NCBI GenBank assembly: GCA_964406305.1
Contig: CAYORF010000001.1
Location: 12,819 to 76,818 of the forward strand
DNA: 64,000 bases
Direction: 5' to 3'
Origin: an uncultured Anaerolineales bacterium
Lineage (GTDB): Bacteria; Chloroflexota; Anaerolineae; Anaerolineales; UBA11858
The notes beneath the pieces were generated by a model. It worked only from the letters and a program-made list of their open reading frames with translations. It was not told the origin of the DNA and did not search any database. The first letter of the stretch is position 1. Every line of letters starts with the position of its first letter. A program made the translations under genes and the position numbers. Positions 24,202 to 49,649 of the stretch are shown in pieces.

Positions 24202-25266
24202 CTACCGGGCACTAAAACCCCCGATCTTCTTTAAGGCCCAGGCAGCGGCTCCCCGTATCAGGGGCTCATCGTCCTTTTGGGCTGTTTCCAGGGTGGGGAT
24301 AGCATCCTTTTCCCCGCGGTTACCGAGTGCAATTGCGACATTCCGCAAATATCCCCGGCGTTTGCTCCTTTTGATAGGGCTTCCCTTAAAACGGGCGCTG
24401 AAACCCTCCTGGCTGAGTTCCATTTCATCAATGAGGTCAATGTCTGTCAGCTCTATGCGCGGCTGCAGCGCCGCTAGTATGGAATGCGATTGCTCCCCGG
24501 GTTTATTCCAGGGGCAGACTATTTGGCAGATATCGCATCCAAAGATCCAATCACCCATCCTGGGTCGCAGTTCCCCTTGGATTTCCGCCCGGTGTTCGAT
24601 AGTAAGGTACGAGATACAGCGATTGGCATCCAGGGTATATGGTTCTTTGAGGGCGCCAGTTGGACAAGTGTCCAGGCATCGTGTGCAGGTGCCGCAGAAG
24701 GTTTCAGTGATCGGTGGATCAGTGATCAGTTCCAGACCAAGCAGGATCTCAGAGAGGAAGAAATATGACCCATGATCGCGGTTGATCAGGGTGGTATTTT
24801 TACCGATCCAACCCAAACCGGCCCGCATGGCTAGCTCCTTTTCAAGAACAGGACCAGTATCGACATACCAGCGGTTAGGTACGGTTTCTCCGATCAATTC
24901 CTCGATGGTTTCCATCAATTTCTTCAAGCGCTTCTCGAGCACTTCGTGATAATCCTGATTTAAGGCATAGGAGGCGATGTTGCCGCCCTTGACGTTGCCT
25001 CTCGGCGCTGGATATGGGCAGGCGAGGACCAGGATCGATTGGCACTCCGGCAAGATCTTTCTCGGATCTGAACGCCGCTCAAGGGAGCGTTCATTCCCGA
25101 TCCAATCCATGGATGCGTTAAATCCTGAATCCAACCAGTCCTGGAAGAAATCCAGGTGATCAGGTGGGTCGGCTGTGGTTACACCCACCAAGGGAAATCC
25201 TAGCTCGATAGCTTTGATTTTGATCTTCTGAGTCAGTGCACTTTTATCCATTTTCAGGGAACCCAT
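24202..25266 (-). CDS. queG: tRNA epoxyqueuosine(34) reductase QueG
   Basis: The 4Fe-4S blocks are CGTCTRCLDTCPTGA and CDICQIVCPWN. It has a C-terminal HEAT-like repeat (DEPLIRGAAAWAL). An alternative start is at 25251. Confidence 0.9.
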   Translation of the reverse strand: MGSLKMDKSALTQKIKIKAIELGFPLVGVTTADPPDHLDFFQDWLDSGFNASMDWIGNERSLERRSDPRKILPECQSILVLACPYPAPRGNVKGGNIASYALNQDYHEVLEKRLKKLMETIEELIGETVPNRWYVDTGPVLEKELAMRAGLGWIGKNTTLINRDHGSYFFLSEILLGLELITDPPITETFCGTCTRCLDTCPTGALKEPYTLDANRCISYLTIEHRAEIQGELRPRMGDWIFGCDICQIVCPWNKPGEQSHSILAALQPRIELTDIDLIDEMELSQEGFSARFKGSPIKRSKRRGYLRNVAIALGNRGEKDAIPTLETAQKDDEPLIRGAAAWALKKIGGFSAR

Positions 25267-32685: not shown

Positions 32686-32718
32686 AGGGACGTAGTCCTT
32701 TGGAAGGACTACGTCCCT
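32686..32718. terminator. 15-bp perfect hairpin between convergent genes (bidirectional terminator)
   Basis: AGGGACGTAGTCCTT-TGG-AAGGACTACGTCCCT. Confidence 0.75.
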
Positions 32719-32758
32719 AATAAATTTGAAGGTCAAGGACCCCGCATCCTCACGGTGA

Positions 32759-33550
32759 TTACAATCCCAGTGTTTTATCCATCATGGCGGCAACTGCCAT
32801 GTAAACAGGGGAATCATCTCCCAGTTCAATCAGTGGCTTCCCGGTGACATCATATTCCATCACATTCTGGTCCATCGGCACAGGTCCCAGGAATGGGACA
32901 TCGATTTTATCGATCCGTTCCTGGAGAGGTGCAGGGATCTCCCCCGGTACGCGATTGAGAATGAAGTAGGAGTTTTTTACATTAATCTTAAGGTCATCTT
33001 TTAACTCCACAATGTTGTCAGCAGCAGAAAGGCCGCGCTGCGTGGGACCACTGACAATGAATAGATGATCCACATCCTGGGTGGTTCTTCGGCTGAGATG
33101 CTCCATGCCGGCTTCGTTGTCCATCACAATGTAGGGATAATTATGGCTCAGTTTGTCCAGGATATCCCGCAGATTGTGGTTCACTGCACAGTAGCAACCG
33201 GGGCCTTCCGACCGGCCCATGGCGATCAGATCAAATTTCTCACTCTCGATCAAGGCGCTGTGGATTTCATAATCCAAATAATCGTGTTTAGACATGCCCC
33301 CGGCAATGCTGCCCCGGGCAGCCCCCGTGACATTCTGGGCACTCTGGACCTGTTTTAACATATCCTCGCGGATGCCGCCAACTGTGCTGTCCAGATCCAC
33401 ACCCAGGACCATGTTCAGGTTAGCACTGGGGTCAGCATCGATAGCCAAAATGGGTTGTTTTCCTTTATTGATCAAGTATTTTATGATCATGGCTGAAACG
33501 GTGGTTTTTCCTGTTCCGCCTTTTCCTGCCAGGGCAATGGTAGTGGTCAT
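32759..33550 (-). CDS. CooC/AcsF-type MinD-family metal-insertion ATPase (second paralogue)
   Basis: The deviant Walker A is AGKGGTGKTT. Other blocks are AIDADPSANL, the CxC motif GPGCYCAVN, and MDNEAGMEHL. Confidence 0.8.
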   Translation of the reverse strand: MTTTIALAGKGGTGKTTVSAMIIKYLINKGKQPILAIDADPSANLNMVLGVDLDSTVGGIREDMLKQVQSAQNVTGAARGSIAGGMSKHDYLDYEIHSALIESEKFDLIAMGRSEGPGCYCAVNHNLRDILDKLSHNYPYIVMDNEAGMEHLSRRTTQDVDHLFIVSGPTQRGLSAADNIVELKDDLKINVKNSYFILNRVPGEIPAPLQERIDKIDVPFLGPVPMDQNVMEYDVTGKPLIELGDDSPVYMAVAAMMDKTLGL

Positions 33551-33557
33551 AATTGGT

Positions 33558-34352
33558 CTACTCCTCTAAATATTTCTCGGGATATGGTTCCAATAAAGTA
33601 GCAGCAATCCCTTCTGATGCCTTGAATATTGCAGGTACGTGGTCATAAACTGGTTTTCCCAGCCGATCCGCATCCAGTACACCCAGGTCCATAGGTAGGG
33701 TGCCCAGCAGTGGAATACCCGGGGAATTCTTTTCTAAGAAATCTCTTTCTTCTTCAGTGCGGACTTTGTTGCCCACCAACCAGAGACGGTTTAATCCGAT
33801 ATCCTTGGACAGGTCCTTGATCTGAGCCGCTGTTCCCAGACTGCGCTGCGTGGGTTCGACGACAATGACCATAGCATCAACAAAATCTACAGTGGCCCGT
33901 CCCAGATGTTCTACGCCTGCGTACATGTCGAGGATCAATATATCATCTTCCCGGAACATCAAATGTGTGAAGAGGGTTTTTAACATGGCGCTCTCTGGAC
34001 AAATACAACCAGAACCGCCCAGGTCAACACTTCCCATTTCTAACAAGCGGACACCTCGATGAGTTACGCTGAAACGTTCAGGGATATCGTCTACGCGGGG
34101 ATTGAGTGTAAAAAATCCACCCACTGTCCCAGGTTTGGCGCCAGTGCGGTCTTCTATCAGCTGGTCCATTTCAGCAATCGGGCTTAATTTTGCCTGTAAA
34201 TCTTCCGGAAGGCCTAATGCGCCAGCCAAACAGGGTGAGGGATCGGCGTCCACAGCCAGGACATCTCTGCCCTGGTCCGCATAATATTGGGCTAATAAAG
34301 CTGACAGGGTTGTTTTTCCAACTCCCCCTTTTCCACTGATTGCTAATTTCAT
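33558..34352 (-). CDS. cooC: CooC-type nickel-insertion accessory ATPase homologue
   Basis: The blocks are SGKGGVGKTT, AVDADPSPCL, LNPRVDDIPERF, the CxC motif GSGCICPE, and DMYAGVEHLGR. It is collinear with what I recall of Rhodospirillum rubrum CooC. Confidence 0.85.
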   Translation of the reverse strand: MKLAISGKGGVGKTTLSALLAQYYADQGRDVLAVDADPSPCLAGALGLPEDLQAKLSPIAEMDQLIEDRTGAKPGTVGGFFTLNPRVDDIPERFSVTHRGVRLLEMGSVDLGGSGCICPESAMLKTLFTHLMFREDDILILDMYAGVEHLGRATVDFVDAMVIVVEPTQRSLGTAAQIKDLSKDIGLNRLWLVGNKVRTEEERDFLEKNSPGIPLLGTLPMDLGVLDADRLGKPVYDHVPAIFKASEGIAATLLEPYPEKYLEE

Positions 34353-34391
34353 GTCCTTCTCCTTGCTTTATCTGTGATATACGGCAAAATA

Positions 34392-35024
34392 TTATTCTGC
34401 GATCAATTTTCCAACTAGCATACTTCCCAGGATTGCGCAGCCGTCGGTGGGTAAGTGGTAATCCGCGATATCCTCAAAAAGGATCTTGTAGGAAGGAGGA
34501 AATTCATCGTCTCCTTTCCAATACACGATCAGGATTGCGATCTGGGGGAGGATCTGGTAGCGGAATGCCCCATCTCCAAAATCGACTTTGATTCCACACA
34601 GAGCATCATTCCTGGTTTCAAACTTATCATAATCCGTCTGGAAATATTGAGTCAGTTTCTGAGCAGTATATCCCTGAAATGCGGAATTATAAAATTGCCC
34701 GTCTGCCAATTCTGAAAAAGAGATCCAGTTTCCTGTAGGAGGAGATCCTTTGGAGGAATGGAAGTAGTACATGATCATGGCTTGATGAATGGGGGGAAGG
34801 GGGTGTTGGGATTCAGTGTCCCTGGCTAGAAAATCCCGGCTGAATAACTGAACAGGTTTTCCCCAAAAGAGAAAATTAAAAAAACTCTCCCCATCCTCTG
34901 ATCGCAGAGTGGTCCCCGTTAATTCAGCCAGTTGGTTCACATCCCTTTGAAAGAGATCTTCCCGGAGTTCATCGCTCCGGCGCTCTAAAGGCTCCTGGTC
35001 TTTGTTCATGACAAAATCGCTCAT
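34392..35024 (-). CDS. DUF3786-like protein of unknown function
   Basis: 210 aa. Blocks such as WISFSELADGQFYNSAFQGY and GDGAFRYQILPQIAILIVYWKGDDEFPPSYKILFED resemble DUF3786 as I remember it. The start overlaps the stop of the upstream selenoprotein gene (ATGA). Confidence 0.55.
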   Translation of the reverse strand: MSDFVMNKDQEPLERRSDELREDLFQRDVNQLAELTGTTLRSEDGESFFNFLFWGKPVQLFSRDFLARDTESQHPLPPIHQAMIMYYFHSSKGSPPTGNWISFSELADGQFYNSAFQGYTAQKLTQYFQTDYDKFETRNDALCGIKVDFGDGAFRYQILPQIAILIVYWKGDDEFPPSYKILFEDIADYHLPTDGCAILGSMLVGKLIAE

Positions 35025-35647
35025 GATATGTTGTCCTCTTGGAGATGTTTCTGAATGGCTCGTTTTAACTCACCTGGTTTAAAGCCAAAAGGTCCTAATC
35101 CTCCGGCATAGACTACAAGCCCGTTTTTGTCGATCAGAAATAAACGGGTTGGCCAGGCAGCATAATTTTTGTTCACCTGGTCATTCATTTCGTCCACATA
35201 TGTCTTAACCCCATACTGGAGGGATTCTGCGCAATCTCCTGCGGCATTGCGTCGTTCCTCAATGGTTGTGGGGTCGTAGATCTCCCAAGAAACCTTTGAG
35301 CCAGAGAGCCGCAGTAAAATGTTCATAAATCCTTTACCGAACCACCAGCCATCTATTGGATGGGCTTCCCGGATGTAAACTTTTATAAATTGGATTTGCT
35401 CCTGAAAGGACTGGTAGATTTCATTGAGACTCACGGTCCCGTTAACATAGGGTGGTCAGGTAAAACTCCCAAAAATCAGGACAACAGGTTTTGCTCCTTG
35501 AAAGCTGCTTAATAGAATGGGATTTTCACCATTGATATCTCTCAGCTCAAAATCAGGGGCTGGATCGCCAATCTTGGGTGCGTCGGCATCGTATTTCTTT
35601 TGCCAGGAAGTTGCTTCCTGACGGTTTTTTATCGTAGCCATAATCAC
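35021..35647 (-). CDS. iodothyronine-deiodinase-family (thioredoxin-fold) selenoprotein; in-frame UGA at 35456-35458
   Basis: Track ORFs 35456..35647 and 35021..35434 share one frame and are separated only by TGA plus 7 sense codons. The junction reads ...PVVLIFGSFT-U-PPYVNGTVSLNEIY... It is followed by FIKVYIREAHPIDGWW and RLFLIDKNGLVVYAGGLGPFGF, the three hallmark deiodinase blocks. The gene has 208 codons with Sec at codon 64. Confidence 0.85.
35426..35440 (-). promoter_or_regulatory. candidate SECIS hairpin (weak)
   Basis: mRNA GGGAC-CGUGA-GUCUC forms 5 pairs including one G-U. The stem starts 15 nt after the UGA, and a G is at loop position 2. It is short, so confidence is low. Confidence 0.25.
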
Positions 35648-35653
35648 TTCGCC

Positions 35654-35668
35654 TGATAATTATTATCT
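35654..35668. promoter_or_regulatory. Fur-family 7-1-7 box in the leader of the selenoprotein/CooC operon
   Basis: TGATAAT-T-ATTATCT matches the 7-1-7 consensus TGATAATnATTATCA at 14/15 positions. The core GATAAT-N-ATTATC is a perfect palindrome. It lies between the putative -10 (35682-35690) and the start codon. Confidence 0.5.
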
Positions 35669-35681
35669 CTAGTAAAAATGT

Positions 35682-35690
35682 ATCATACCA
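35682..35690 (-). promoter_or_regulatory. extended -10 promoter element (TGgTATGAT) for the selenoprotein operon
   Basis: On the minus strand, TGGTATGAT lies 35 nt upstream of the GTG at 35647. Confidence 0.4.
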
Positions 35691-49339: not shown

Positions 49340-49354
49340 CTTTAAAAGAGAAAG

Positions 49355-49425
<71 letters not shown>

Positions 49426-49497
49426 CTGATATAAAGAAGCTGATGGTTTCCGGCTGATAAATTTCAGCCATCAGCCACCAGCCGGTATTCTGGAAAG

Positions 49498-49569
<72 letters not shown>

Positions 49570-49576
49570 TTGAAAG

Positions 49577-49649
49577 TGCCGAGAGCCAGACTCGAACTGG
49601 CGACCCTTTGATTTTCAGTCAAATGCTCTACCAACTGAGCTATCTCGGC
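49577..49649 (-). tRNA. tRNA-Phe (GAA)
   Basis: Manual cloverleaf: GCCGAGA TA GCTC AGTTGGTA GAGC A TTTGA CTGAAAA TCAAA GGGTC GCCAG TTCGAGT CTGGC TCTCGGC A. Confidence 0.9.

What the first reader, a model, noticed from the sequence alone, without database searches (positions are those of the whole stretch)
35021..35647. Iodothyronine-deiodinase-family selenoprotein hidden by an in-frame UGA (two track ORFs are one gene)
Minus-strand ORFs 35456..35647 and 35021..35434 are in the same frame. They are separated only by TGA (35456-35458) plus 7 sense codons. Read through, the junction is ...GAKPVVLIFGSFT-U-PPYVNGTVSLNEIYQSF... Downstream come FIKVYIREAHPIDGWW and YAAWPTRLFLIDKNGLVVYAGGLGPFGFKPGEL. 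These three blocks correspond to the hallmarks of vertebrate deiodinases: the active site FGS(A/C)T-U-PPF, then (V)YI(D/E)EAHPSDGW, then the C-terminal RLY.I..G...Y.GG.GP.GY. The TGA falls exactly on the catalytic Sec position. Deiodinases perform reductive dehalogenation of an aromatic iodide, and the role of the bacterial homologues is not established as far as I know. Presence of this gene implies a Sec-decoding organism (selABCD elsewhere).
Basis: partly seen in the sequence, partly recalled or inferred. Interest (0 to 1): 0.85.

Follow-up and report, generated by a model that had tools for sequence, protein, structure and literature searches.

The report
Deiodinase-like selenoprotein gene in Anaerolineales
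The two adjacent reading frames are one real gene for a bacterial relative of the thyroid-hormone deiodinases whose in-frame UGA very probably encodes selenocysteine; the family has been known since 2005, its job in bacteria is still unknown, and gene callers routinely cut it in two.

Summary
Minus-strand ORFs 35456..35647 and 35021..35434 are one gene (35641..35021, 206 aa) interrupted only by TGA at 35458..35456.

The fused product passes the Pfam T4_deiodinase threshold (94 bits against 27). Its best solved-structure matches are mouse Dio3 and Dio2. The TGA aligns with their catalytic selenocysteine.

All 84 close relatives examined keep TGA at this codon, at 52-98% protein identity. More distant relatives mostly carry Cys there (113 of 150 cluster representatives).

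Fifteen nt after the UGA lies a conserved 5-6 bp hairpin with loop CGUGA. It shows compensatory changes. Synonymous-site variation is suppressed in exactly those five codons. It meets the loop, stem and spacing rules of the bacterial SECIS model, but its energy in this window is weak (-5.0 kcal/mol).

No Sec machinery lies in the window, and the rest of the genome could not be checked.

Deiodinase-like bacterial selenoproteins were described in 2005, so this is a new member of a known kind. One new lead emerged: in 8 of 81 related genomes, in three separate clades, the gene sits next to reductive-dehalogenase-family genes on the same strand. That makes a dehalogenation role testable.

The parts
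35021..35641 (-). Complete deiodinase-like selenoprotein gene: ATG 35641..35639, 206 codons with Sec as residue 62, own stop TGA 35023..35021.
   Evidence: PF00837 scores 94.4 bits over residues 19-198. The start is placed by homologue N-termini.
35456..35458 (-). In-frame UGA read as selenocysteine (U62) in the motif FGSFT-U-PPY.
   Evidence: TGA in 84 of 84 relatives. It aligns with Sec170 of Dio3. Cys occupies this position in 113 of 150 representative clusters.
35426..35440 (-). SECIS-type hairpin inside the coding sequence: GGGAC (35440..35436), loop CGUGA (35435..35431), GUCUC (35430..35426). The loop GUG is the 'GTG start' of the 137-aa ORF.
   Evidence: 91.5% of cells are paired, against 30-59% when the partner is slid. 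G-C changes to U-A in 8 sequences and A-U to G-C in 2. Loop G25 is invariant; synonymous variation is suppressed only in codons +6..+10.: -5.0 kcal/mol in the window.
34392..35024 (-). Downstream gene for a DUF3786 protein. Its ATG overlaps the selenoprotein stop (ATGA).
   Evidence: PF12654, 141.8 bits. It lies directly downstream of the selenoprotein gene only in the window's own clade; in L013, L019 and L040 a copy lies elsewhere in the locus.
33558..34352 (-). CooC/MinD-type P-loop ATPase, third gene of the apparent operon.
   Evidence: CbiA PF01656; no equivalog reached.
32759..33550 (-). Second CooC/MinD-type P-loop ATPase, last gene of the apparent operon.
32686..32718 (-). Terminator-like hairpin of 15 pairs followed by a T-rich tail, just after the last gene.
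   Evidence: consensus scan only.
35659..35686 (-). Weak sigma-70-like promoter match upstream of the start codon.
   Evidence: 9 of 12 matches. The number of sites in the region is no higher than in shuffles, so this is only a candidate.

Best explanation
One gene (35641..35021, minus strand) encodes a soluble 206-aa member of the iodothyronine-deiodinase family, which has a thioredoxin/peroxiredoxin-type fold. Its catalytic residue 62 is selenocysteine, encoded by UGA.

Decoding (inferred from sequence, not demonstrated). While the ribosome is at UGA, SelB carrying Sec-tRNA(Sec) would bind a minimal SECIS hairpin that starts 15 nt downstream. The hairpin has a 5-bp stem and loop CGUGA, and it overlaps codons Gly-Thr-Val-Ser-Leu. 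The same gene ends at an ordinary TGA that has no such hairpin.

Catalysis (inferred from homology). The selenolate attacks an electrophilic atom of the substrate. It is helped by the deiodinase-type proton relay (Ser59, Thr61, Tyr89, Glu92, His94) and by Arg166. The oxidised selenium (Se-X) is then resolved by the conserved Cys137 or by an external thiol such as thioredoxin.

Substrate. It is unknown and is not thyroid hormone. I favour reductive dehalogenation of a small aryl halide (about 0.35-0.4) over peroxide or disulfide reduction (about 0.3).
For: Shown by tool results:
- Single frame with one TGA.
- PF00837 at 94.4 bits against a threshold of 27.
- Dio3 4TR3 at E=4.7e-20 and Dio2 9H48 at 1.4e-14, with U62 aligned to the catalytic Sec.
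- AlphaFold model of a relative 76% identical (pLDDT 79.8). Its top Foldseek hits are Dio3 and Dio2, with TM-scores of 0.67-0.74.
- TGA in 84 of 84 relatives spanning 52-98% identity.
- Cys at the same position in 113 of 150 representative clusters.
- Conserved hairpin with compensatory changes.
- Synonymous-site suppression confined to codons +6..+10, at 1.4-1.8 effective codons out of 4-6. The flanking conserved Pro, Pro and Val codons use 3.0-3.8 of 4.
- The nearest Cys-form (TGT codon) lacks the hairpin (one control only).
- TGA is an ordinary stop for 9 of 48 long ORFs in the window, and for this gene itself.
- Ser59, Thr61, Tyr89, Glu92, His94 and Arg166 are kept in 83-84 of 84 relatives, and Cys137 in 81 of 84.

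From the literature:
- The hairpin meets the loop, stem, loop-G and spacing rules of the bacterial SECIS model (PMC13188914).
- Sec decoding is documented in Chloroflexi (PMC1794560, PMC5389517).

For the dehalogenation reading:
- In 8 of 81 related genomes the gene lies close to reductive-dehalogenase-family genes on the same strand. It abuts or overlaps them in six. Two of those neighbours are above the TIGR02486 cutoff.
- These eight genomes fall in three separate clades of the protein tree.
Against: - No selA, selB, selD or tRNA-Sec is present in the window or in about 0.8 Mb of related loci. The rest of the genome could not be examined.
- The hairpin is weak in this window (-5.0 kcal/mol), which fails the SECIS model's -7.5 criterion. 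Only 32 of 83 sequences (the window plus 82 related loci) pass on the hairpin alone.
- Single-sequence folding is not better than shuffles (z=0.55).
- The hairpin overlaps conserved amino acids (GTVSL), so part of its conservation reflects protein-level selection.
- No Rfam family matches.
- Against a dehalogenase role: residues assigned to iodothyronine binding in Dio3 are not kept. Arg275 is Leu182 here, and His219 is Pro124 (roles from PMC11592359).
- The window itself has no reductive-dehalogenase neighbour, and 73 of 81 related loci have none either.
Confidence: 0.8

Rival explanations
1. Same selenoprotein, different chemistry. It acts as a peroxiredoxin-like or thiol-disulfide oxidoreductase, reducing peroxides, disulfides or another oxidised sulfur or selenium compound. 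It has nothing to do with halogens.
For: - The fold is shared with the peroxiredoxin and ResA families: AhpC-TSA at 35.7 bits, Redoxin at 35 bits, and many ResA, Bcp and AhpE Foldseek hits.
- The Arg of the peroxiredoxin-like 'RLF(L)ID' motif is invariant (R166; the peroxiredoxin role of this Arg is from my own knowledge).
- A conserved second Cys (C137) could serve as a resolving residue.
- The original authors suggested a redox role because thyroid hormones are not expected in bacteria (PMC1088965).
- The Dio3 substrate-clamp residues are not conserved.
- Gene neighbourhoods are variable and mostly housekeeping.
Against: - The best matches by a wide margin are true deiodinases, not peroxiredoxins (E=4.7e-20 against 2e-3 for ResA).
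- The deiodinase-specific relay Tyr-x-x-Glu-x-His is invariant.
- Same-strand linkage to reductive-dehalogenase-family genes appears in three clades.
Confidence: 0.3
2. The UGA is decoded, but not as selenocysteine. It would be read through by a near-cognate or suppressor tRNA (as Trp, Cys or Arg), or the lineage would use a variant genetic code.
For: - Public gene calls for short contigs show Trp at this position.
- No Sec machinery was seen in the window.
- The base after UGA is always C. From my own knowledge, UGA-C is a leaky termination context.
Against: - The 'W' is an artefact of calling short contigs with code 4. The DNA has TGA.
- TGA terminates 9 of 48 long ORFs in this window, including this gene. 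The code is therefore standard.
- The codon sits exactly on the catalytic Sec/Cys position of a redox family, where Trp would be inactive.
- It is never replaced by TGG, TGC or TGT in 84 relatives.
- It is followed by a conserved hairpin of SECIS type.
Confidence: 0.04
3. The TGA is a true stop. The locus is then a pseudogene, or two separate small genes of 61-63 aa and 137 aa, as current annotations show.
For: - Gene callers and NCBI list 134-138-aa 'hypothetical proteins' for many relatives.
- A GTG lies 7 codons after the TGA.
Against: - TGA is conserved in 84 of 84 relatives down to 52% identity. That is incompatible with a decaying pseudogene.
- The seven codons between the TGA and the GTG are conserved as protein with free synonymous change. 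Pro and Pro are kept in 82 of 82 and 81 of 82 sequences, using 3.0-3.3 of 4 codons.
- The 'start' Val codon is a non-start GTC, GTA or GTT in 13 of 78 relatives.
- Neither half is a complete fold. The Pfam domain and the Dio3 alignment run straight across the TGA.
Confidence: 0.02

Closest known systems
Bacterial 'deiodinase-like protein' selenoprotein family (Zhang, Fomenko and Gladyshev 2005, Sargasso Sea, PMC1088965; also listed in PMC2398784, PMC9312934, PMC13188914).
   Same: - PF00837 homology.
- An in-frame UGA at the active site, with Cys-containing homologues.
- A bacterial-type SECIS hairpin directly downstream, with a G in a small apical loop.
- Function unknown.
   Different: - The reviews give the redox motif as UxxC for their representative. 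This gene and its 84 relatives have U-P-P-Y/F with no Cys at +3, as in animal deiodinases.
- The lineage here is Anaerolineales (Chloroflexota), with relatives in at least 577 species-representative genomes, rather than a few marine reads.
- The SECIS is a very short hairpin of 5-6 bp.
Vertebrate iodothyronine deiodinases Dio1-3 (structures 4TR3 and 9H48).
   Same: - Fold and Dio-type insertion.
- Active-site motif FGS-x-T-U-PP(F/Y).
- Proton-relay residues Ser167, Thr169, Tyr197, Glu200 and His202 correspond to S59, T61, Y89, E92 and H94 here.
- C-terminal R-L-(Y/F) and GG-x-GP motifs.
   Different: - No N-terminal membrane anchor.
- SECIS lies inside the coding sequence rather than in the 3' UTR.
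- Dio3 Arg275 (substrate clamp) is Leu here, and His219 is Pro.
- Dio3 Cys239 is Val here. The conserved Cys137 lies 8 residues earlier.
- Thyroid hormone is not an expected substrate.
NCBIfam NF038285 'deiodinase family protein' (bacterial, 347-position model).
   Same: The C-terminal catalytic domain matches profile positions 174-345 (187 bits).
   Different: The score is below the curated cutoff of 250, because the N-terminal half of that model is absent. From my reading of representatives P0126, P0128 and P0130, that half is membrane-spanning. Those proteins carry Cys, not Sec.
Peroxiredoxin and ResA-type thiol-disulfide oxidoreductases (PF00578, PF08534).
   Same: Thioredoxin-like fold and the position of the nucleophile at the N-terminus of helix 1. 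The Arg of the 'RLF(L)ID'-type motif is kept; its peroxiredoxin role is from my own knowledge.
   Different: Similarity is much weaker than to the deiodinases. The protein carries the deiodinase-specific insertion and the Y-x-x-E-x-H relay.

Membership tests
Iodothyronine deiodinase family (Pfam PF00837) | Profile score above the Pfam gathering threshold across the catalytic domain. | tested here: met
   94.4 bits against 27; residues 19-198 match profile positions 70-235 of 237. Neither half alone covers the whole domain: the N-terminal part scores 14 bits (below the 27-bit threshold), and the 137-aa C-terminal part scores 58.6 bits but matches only profile positions 128-235.
Iodothyronine deiodinase family (Pfam PF00837) | Thioredoxin/peroxiredoxin-type fold closest to solved deiodinase structures. 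| tested here: met
   By sequence: 4TR3 at E=4.7e-20 and 9H48 at 1.4e-14. Foldseek with the model of a relative 76% identical: 4TR3 and 9H48 rank 1 and 2, with TM-scores of 0.67-0.74.
Iodothyronine deiodinase family (Pfam PF00837) | Catalytic Sec (or Cys) in the motif FGS-x-T-U-P-x-F/Y. | tested here: met
   FGSFT-U-PPY. U62 aligns with the catalytic position of Dio3 and Dio2. Thr61 and U62 are kept in 84 of 84 relatives.
Iodothyronine deiodinase family (Pfam PF00837) | Proton-relay residues Ser, Thr, Tyr, Glu, His and a second His (Dio2 Ser127, Thr129, Tyr157, Glu160, His162, His182; PMC11592359). | tested here: inconclusive
   Five of six are kept (S59, T61, Y89, E92, H94; 83-84 of 84 relatives). 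The second His (Dio3 His219) aligns with Pro124, but the alignment is next to a 13-residue indel.
Iodothyronine deiodinase family (Pfam PF00837) | Iodothyronine carboxylate clamp (Dio3 Arg275 / Dio2 Lys241). | tested here: not met
   It aligns with Leu182, which is Leu in 70 of 84 relatives. The role of the residue is from PMC11592359.
Iodothyronine deiodinase family (Pfam PF00837) | N-terminal membrane anchor, as in animal deiodinases. | tested here: not met
   Residues 1-23 (MATIKNRQEATSWQKKYDADAPK) are hydrophilic, and the Pfam match starts at profile position 70. This comes from reading the sequence; no transmembrane predictor was run.
Iodothyronine deiodinase family (Pfam PF00837) | Reductive deiodination activity. 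| not testable with these tools
   Needs enzymology.
Bacterial selenoprotein (Sec/Cys pair plus bSECIS criteria, PMC13188914) | In-frame UGA aligned with Cys in homologues and conserved among orthologues. | tested here: met
   TGA in 84 of 84 relatives. Cys in 113 of 150 representative clusters, with motifs CGPF, CPPF and CPPY.
Bacterial selenoprotein (Sec/Cys pair plus bSECIS criteria, PMC13188914) | bSECIS geometry: apical loop of 3-9 nt, upper stem of 4-16 bp, G in the first two loop positions followed by G or U, and 16-37 nt between UGA and the loop. | tested here: met
   The loop is CGUGA (5 nt), with G invariant and U in more than 90% of sequences. The stem is 5 bp in the window and 6 bp in most relatives. 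Twenty nt separate the UGA from the loop. Covariation and synonymous-site suppression support it.
Bacterial selenoprotein (Sec/Cys pair plus bSECIS criteria, PMC13188914) | bSECIS minimum free energy of -7.5 kcal/mol or lower. | tested here: not met
   The hairpin is -5.0 kcal/mol in the window. The median across relatives is -6.5, and 32 of 83 sequences (window included) reach -7.5.
Bacterial selenoprotein (Sec/Cys pair plus bSECIS criteria, PMC13188914) | Genome encodes SelA, SelB, SelD and tRNA-Sec. | not testable with these tools
   None is in the 64-kb window or the fetched loci. The rest of the genome is not available. The trait is documented in Chloroflexi (PMC1794560, PMC5389517).
Deiodinase-like selenoprotein as tabulated in reviews (motif UxxC) | Redox motif U-x-x-C. 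| tested here: not met
   The motif is U-P-P-Y or U-P-P-F in all relatives, with no Cys at +3. The 2008 GOS table lists no fixed motif for the family.
NCBIfam NF038285 deiodinase_rel | Score above the curated cutoff over the full 347-position model. | tested here: not met
   187.2 bits against 250. Only positions 174-345 are matched.

The most novel reading that the evidence does not exclude
The Sec-containing deiodinase homologues of Chloroflexota would be genuine corrinoid-independent aryl-halide reductive dehalogenases. They would remove iodine or bromine from natural halophenols by the same selenium halogen-bond mechanism as animal deiodinases. In some lineages they would work in one operon with corrinoid RdhA-type enzymes. 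That would make dehalogenation, not hormone metabolism, the ancestral function of the deiodinase family. It would also add a selenium-dependent branch to microbial halogen cycling.
Probability: 0.2. Interest if true: 0.8.

Novelty: new member of a known kind. Interest (0 to 1): 0.4.

Why it matters
- **Annotation.** At least 577 species-representative genomes, mostly Anaerolineales and other Chloroflexota, carry this gene. Among the 120 closest database proteins it usually appears as a truncated hypothetical protein of about 137 aa. On short contigs it can appear as a spurious Trp-containing protein called with genetic code 4. Recognising it corrects those records and marks these lineages as Sec users.
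- **RNA biology.** The element is a clean natural example of a very small SECIS: 5-6 bp plus a pentaloop, written into five codons.
- **Function.** What bacterial deiodinase homologues do has been open since 2005. Same-strand linkage to reductive-dehalogenase-family genes in three clades gives a concrete hypothesis that can be tested with halophenol substrates.

Tried and rejected
- **Single-sequence folding.** Folding the 77 nt around the UGA gave nothing better than shuffles (z=0.55). The hairpin emerged only from comparison with relatives.
- **Rfam.** Searches at gathering and at permissive thresholds found no SECIS family.
- **tRNA-Sec.** ARAGORN and Rfam found none in the window or in 82 loci.
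- **SelA, SelB, SelD.** tblastn with E. coli sequences written from memory found nothing in the window or loci, even at E=10. NCBIfam scans of ten ORFs of suitable size found other functions.
- **Other selenoprotein genes in the window.** A scan for same-frame ORF pairs joined by a TGA found only this gene as a credible case.
- **A UGAC/GUCA mini-helix that includes the UGA.** It appears in several MFE folds, but I rejected it because its third position varies freely.
- **Neighbour analysis across 81 loci.** No universally conserved partner emerged.
- **DUF3786 and CooC link.** It recurs in two clades. In the second clade the genes sit 2-5 kb away inside a housekeeping block (MsrA, cyclophilin, acyltransferase). 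I therefore treat it as lineage synteny rather than functional coupling. A literature search for DUF3786 gave nothing useful.
- **Source contig.** Looking up the window's own 137-aa product found no record.
- **Contexts of four other homologues.** Two Sec-type and two Cys-type homologues were checked and were uninformative.
- **Interruptions in the RDH-like genes of L061, L066 and L076.** I checked whether they could be further Sec codons. They are frameshifts, or a stop aligned with His or Lys, so they are not selenoprotein candidates.
- **Submission limits.** The fused sequence with Cys substituted could not be submitted to the representative search. Database homologues were therefore used for that search and for the structure model.
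Full report
**1. The observation**

On the minus strand, 35647..35021 translates in one frame as VIMATIKNRQ...GAKPVVLIFGSFT*PPYVNGTVSLNEIYQSF...QEDNIS*. There is a single internal stop. It is TGA at 35458..35456. They are separated by the TGA and seven sense codons. Homologues start M-x-T-I-K-N-R. The real start is therefore ATG 35641..35639, and the gene is 35641..35021 (206 aa). It ends at an ordinary TGA at 35023..35021.

**2. What the product is**

I replaced the stop with Cys for the searches.
- The fused protein scores 94.4 bits on Pfam T4_deiodinase (PF00837, threshold 27) over residues 19-198. Matches to AhpC-TSA and Redoxin are much weaker.
- The N-terminal piece alone is below threshold (14 bits).
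- NCBIfam's bacterial model NF038285 ('deiodinase family protein') matches at 187 bits. That is below its cutoff of 250. The window protein has only the C-terminal catalytic half of that 347-position model.
- Against solved structures, the best hits are mouse Dio3 (4TR3, E=4.7e-20) and Dio2 (9H48, 1.4e-14). Residue 62 aligns with their catalytic Sec, which is Cys in the crystallised mutants.
- An AlphaFold model of P0001, a relative 76% identical, has pLDDT 79.8. Its top two Foldseek matches are again Dio3 and Dio2 (TM-scores 0.67-0.74), ahead of ResA and the peroxiredoxins.

**3. Is the TGA a selected codon?**

The protein search found 1174 relatives at E <= 0.001. The 120 best listed fall mainly into two forms. 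Many are products of about 134-142 aa that begin just after the TGA. Some are 'full-length' proteins from short contigs that show Trp at the critical position. The DNA of one such contig has TGA there. The Trp is therefore an artefact of calling short contigs with genetic code 4.

A scan of species-representative genomes found at least 577 loci. They are mostly Anaerolineales and other Chloroflexota MAGs, and 80 were fetched. All 82 loci then in hand carry TGA at this codon. A later set of 84 sequences gave 84 of 84. These sequences span 52-98% protein identity.

TGA is still a normal stop in this organism. It ends 9 of 48 long ORFs in the window, including this gene.

A profile search of 1.8 billion cluster representatives found 7170 relatives at E <= 0.001. 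Among the top 150:
- 113 have Cys at the aligned position (motifs CGPF, CPPF, CPPY);
- 4 have the code-4 'W';
- about 11 are truncated just after the position.

This is the classical Sec/Cys pattern used to define selenoprotein genes (PMC13188914).

**4. The recoding signal**

Folding the window's sequence alone gave nothing significant. The ungapped alignment of 82 sequences from the UGA onward was more informative. It shows a hairpin at columns 18/19-23 and 29-33/34, (G)GGGAC-CGUGA-GUCUC(C). In the window this is 35440..35426.
- 91.5% of cells form standard pairs, against 30-59% when the 3' partner is slid by 1-3 columns.
- No shuffle out of 500 reached the observed pairing or covariation score.
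- One pair switches G-C to U-A in 8 sequences. Another switches A-U to G-C in 2.
- Loop G25 is invariant, and U26 is present in more than 90% of sequences.

The hairpin overlaps conserved residues (Gly-Thr-Val-Ser-Leu), so I measured codon usage among sequences that share the same amino acid. In codons +6..+10 only 1.4-1.8 effective codons are used out of 4-6 (GGG, ACC, GUG, AGU, CUC). Equally conserved residues on either side use nearly all synonymous codons. Pro+1 uses 3.3 of 4, Pro+2 3.0 of 4, Val+4 3.8 of 4 and Leu+13 5.4 of 6. That is selection on the RNA, confined to the hairpin. Codon -1 (ACC) is also constrained.

Against the published bacterial SECIS model (PMC13188914) the element behaves as follows:
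- Loop size (5 nt): met.
- Stem length (5-6 bp): met.
- G followed by U in the first loop positions: met.
- Spacing (20 nt between the UGA and the loop): met.
- Energy: not met in this window. The hairpin is only -5.0 kcal/mol, and 32 of 83 sequences (the window plus 82 related loci) reach -7.5.

The nearest Cys-form gene (TGT codon) has no such hairpin (a single control). The 'GTG start' of the 137-aa ORF is simply the GUG in the loop. In 13 of 78 relatives that codon is GTC, GTA or GTT, none of which can start translation.

**5. What could not be shown**

The window has no tRNA-Sec, only tRNA-Cys, tRNA-Gly and tRNA-Phe at 49354-49649. It has no SelA, SelB or SelD. It has no other credible TGA-split gene. 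The rest of the genome is not available to me. The literature documents selenoproteins, and an unusual 8/4 tRNA-Sec, in Chloroflexi (PMC1794560, PMC5389517). That makes Sec decoding plausible, and it warns that standard tRNA finders may miss the tRNA.

**6. Catalytic anatomy**

From the HMMER alignment with Dio3, and the roles given in PMC11592359, the mapping is:

| Dio3 residue | Role | Here |
|---|---|---|
| Ser167, Thr169, Sec170 | active-site motif | S59, T61, U62 |
| Tyr197, Glu200, His202 | proton relay | Y89, E92, H94 |
| Arg260 ('ERLY') | Arg of the RL(Y/F) motif | R166 |
| Arg275 | thyronine clamp | Leu182 |
| His219 | proton relay, second His | Pro124 (beside a 13-residue indel) |
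| Cys239 | cysteine | Val145 |

The residues in the first three rows are kept in 83-84 of 84 relatives. A different cysteine, Cys137, lies 8 residues before the Cys239 position and is kept in 81 of 84. It is also the majority residue in the wider bacterial family. The N-terminus is hydrophilic, so unlike the animal enzymes the protein is probably soluble.

My inference is that the catalytic machinery of a deiodinase-type selenol reductase is intact, while the thyronine-specific binding residues are absent.

**7. Genomic context**

In the window the gene appears to head a four-gene operon. The genes are the selenoprotein, a DUF3786 protein whose ATG overlaps the selenoprotein stop (ATGA), and two CooC/MinD-type ATPases. 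A 15-pair terminator-like hairpin follows at 32718..32686.

Across 81 related loci no partner is universal. The DUF3786/CooC genes are adjacent only in the window's clade. In a second clade they lie 2-5 kb away inside a housekeeping block. I read this as lineage synteny.

The more interesting pattern is in eight loci: L025, L055, L056, L061, L066, L072, L076 and L077.
- The gene lies on the same strand as genes of the reductive-dehalogenase family (TIGR02486) and close to them.
- It abuts or overlaps them in six loci. In four of these (L055, L056, L066, L076) they lie on both sides, with overlapping stop and start.
- In L077 a 287-nt gap intervenes, and in L025 a 242-aa ORF lies between.
- Two neighbours are above the curated cutoff of 160.35 bits (L025 at 164.6, L077 at 184.4).
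- The others score 76-85 bits. Reductive dehalogenase is still their best family, ahead of QueG.
- On a neighbour-joining tree of the selenoproteins these loci fall in three separate clades.
- The dehalogenase-like genes of L025 and L077 are only 27-32% identical to the rest.

The window itself has no such neighbour. Its only relative of that superfamily is a true QueG at 24202..25266 (358.8 bits).

**8. Comparison with what is known**

Deiodinase-like proteins with Sec, their Cys homologues and their bacterial SECIS elements were reported from the Sargasso Sea in 2005. The authors proposed a redox role, because thyroid hormones are not expected in bacteria (PMC1088965). The family appears in the GOS survey and in the reviews of 2022 and 2026. 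The reviews give its motif as UxxC, whereas this clade has U-P-P-Y/F.

No paper in the searchable library mentions deiodinases together with both reductive dehalogenases and Anaerolineae. The finding is therefore a correct call of a new member of a known kind. Three additions come from this work: how widespread it is in Anaerolineales, the minimal SECIS, and the linkage to dehalogenase-family genes.

**9. Verdict**

| Question | Estimate |
|---|---|
| Real selenoprotein gene of the deiodinase family | about 0.9 |
| Sec rather than another reading of UGA | about 0.9, given a Sec-competent genome |
| Substrate is an aryl halide | about 0.35-0.4 |
| Substrate is a peroxide, thiol or disulfide | about 0.3 |

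Interest is moderate at 0.4. A specialist would not be surprised by the gene. The misannotation is widespread, however, and the dehalogenase linkage gives an old open question a concrete test.

Noticed in passing
L055:4857-7556, L056:4816-7621, L066:4871-7650, L076:4859-7669, L061:6184-7430, L072:2381-4172, L025:3747-6603, L077:6000-7837: In eight related Chloroflexota genomes the deiodinase-like selenoprotein gene lies close to reductive-dehalogenase-family genes (TIGR02486) on the same strand. It abuts or overlaps them in six, and in four they lie on both sides. The eight loci fall in three separate clades of the protein tree.
   Followed up: partly
window 32686-35024 (minus strand): A DUF3786 gene and two CooC/MinD-type ATPase genes follow the selenoprotein gene in an apparent operon, closed by a strong terminator-like hairpin. 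No CODH/ACS gene is nearby, and the role of this trio is unknown.
   Followed up: partly
P0001, P0002, P0004 and others; L001:200-832: Public protein collections hold 'full-length' versions of this protein with Trp at the Sec position, because short contigs were called with genetic code 4. The same collections hold many truncated entries of about 134-142 aa, and NCBI names several of them 'hypothetical protein'.
   Followed up: yes
window 35431-35435: The GTG that gene callers use as the start of the 137-aa ORF is the conserved GUG inside the SECIS loop. The recoding signal itself therefore creates the false start.
   Followed up: yes
window 35459-35461 (codon -1, ACC): The Thr codon just before the UGA is ACC in 69 of 82 relatives (1.8 effective codons of 4). 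The Ser codon at -3 is almost always AGY. This may be a sequence-context requirement upstream of the Sec codon.
   Followed up: no
window 24202-25266 (minus strand): A true epoxyqueuosine reductase QueG (TIGR00276, 358.8 bits). It is the only member of the RdhA/QueG superfamily in the window, and it lies 10 kb from the selenoprotein gene.
   Followed up: yes
L061:6599-7440, L066:6641-7650, L076:6623-7700: The dehalogenase-like genes downstream of the selenoprotein gene are interrupted by frameshifts (L061, L066) or by an in-frame stop aligned with His or Lys (L076). These are probably assembly errors or decay, not further Sec codons.
   Followed up: yes
L020, L030, L031, L052 (record titles): Contigs carrying close relatives of this Anaerolineales-type gene are labelled Methanosarcinales, Rickettsiales and Enterobacterales MAGs. 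Mis-binning is the likely explanation, though horizontal transfer is possible.
   Followed up: no
window 49354-49649 (minus strand): A cluster of tRNA-Phe(GAA), tRNA-Gly(GCC) and tRNA-Cys(GCA). The window contains no tRNA-Sec.
   Followed up: yes
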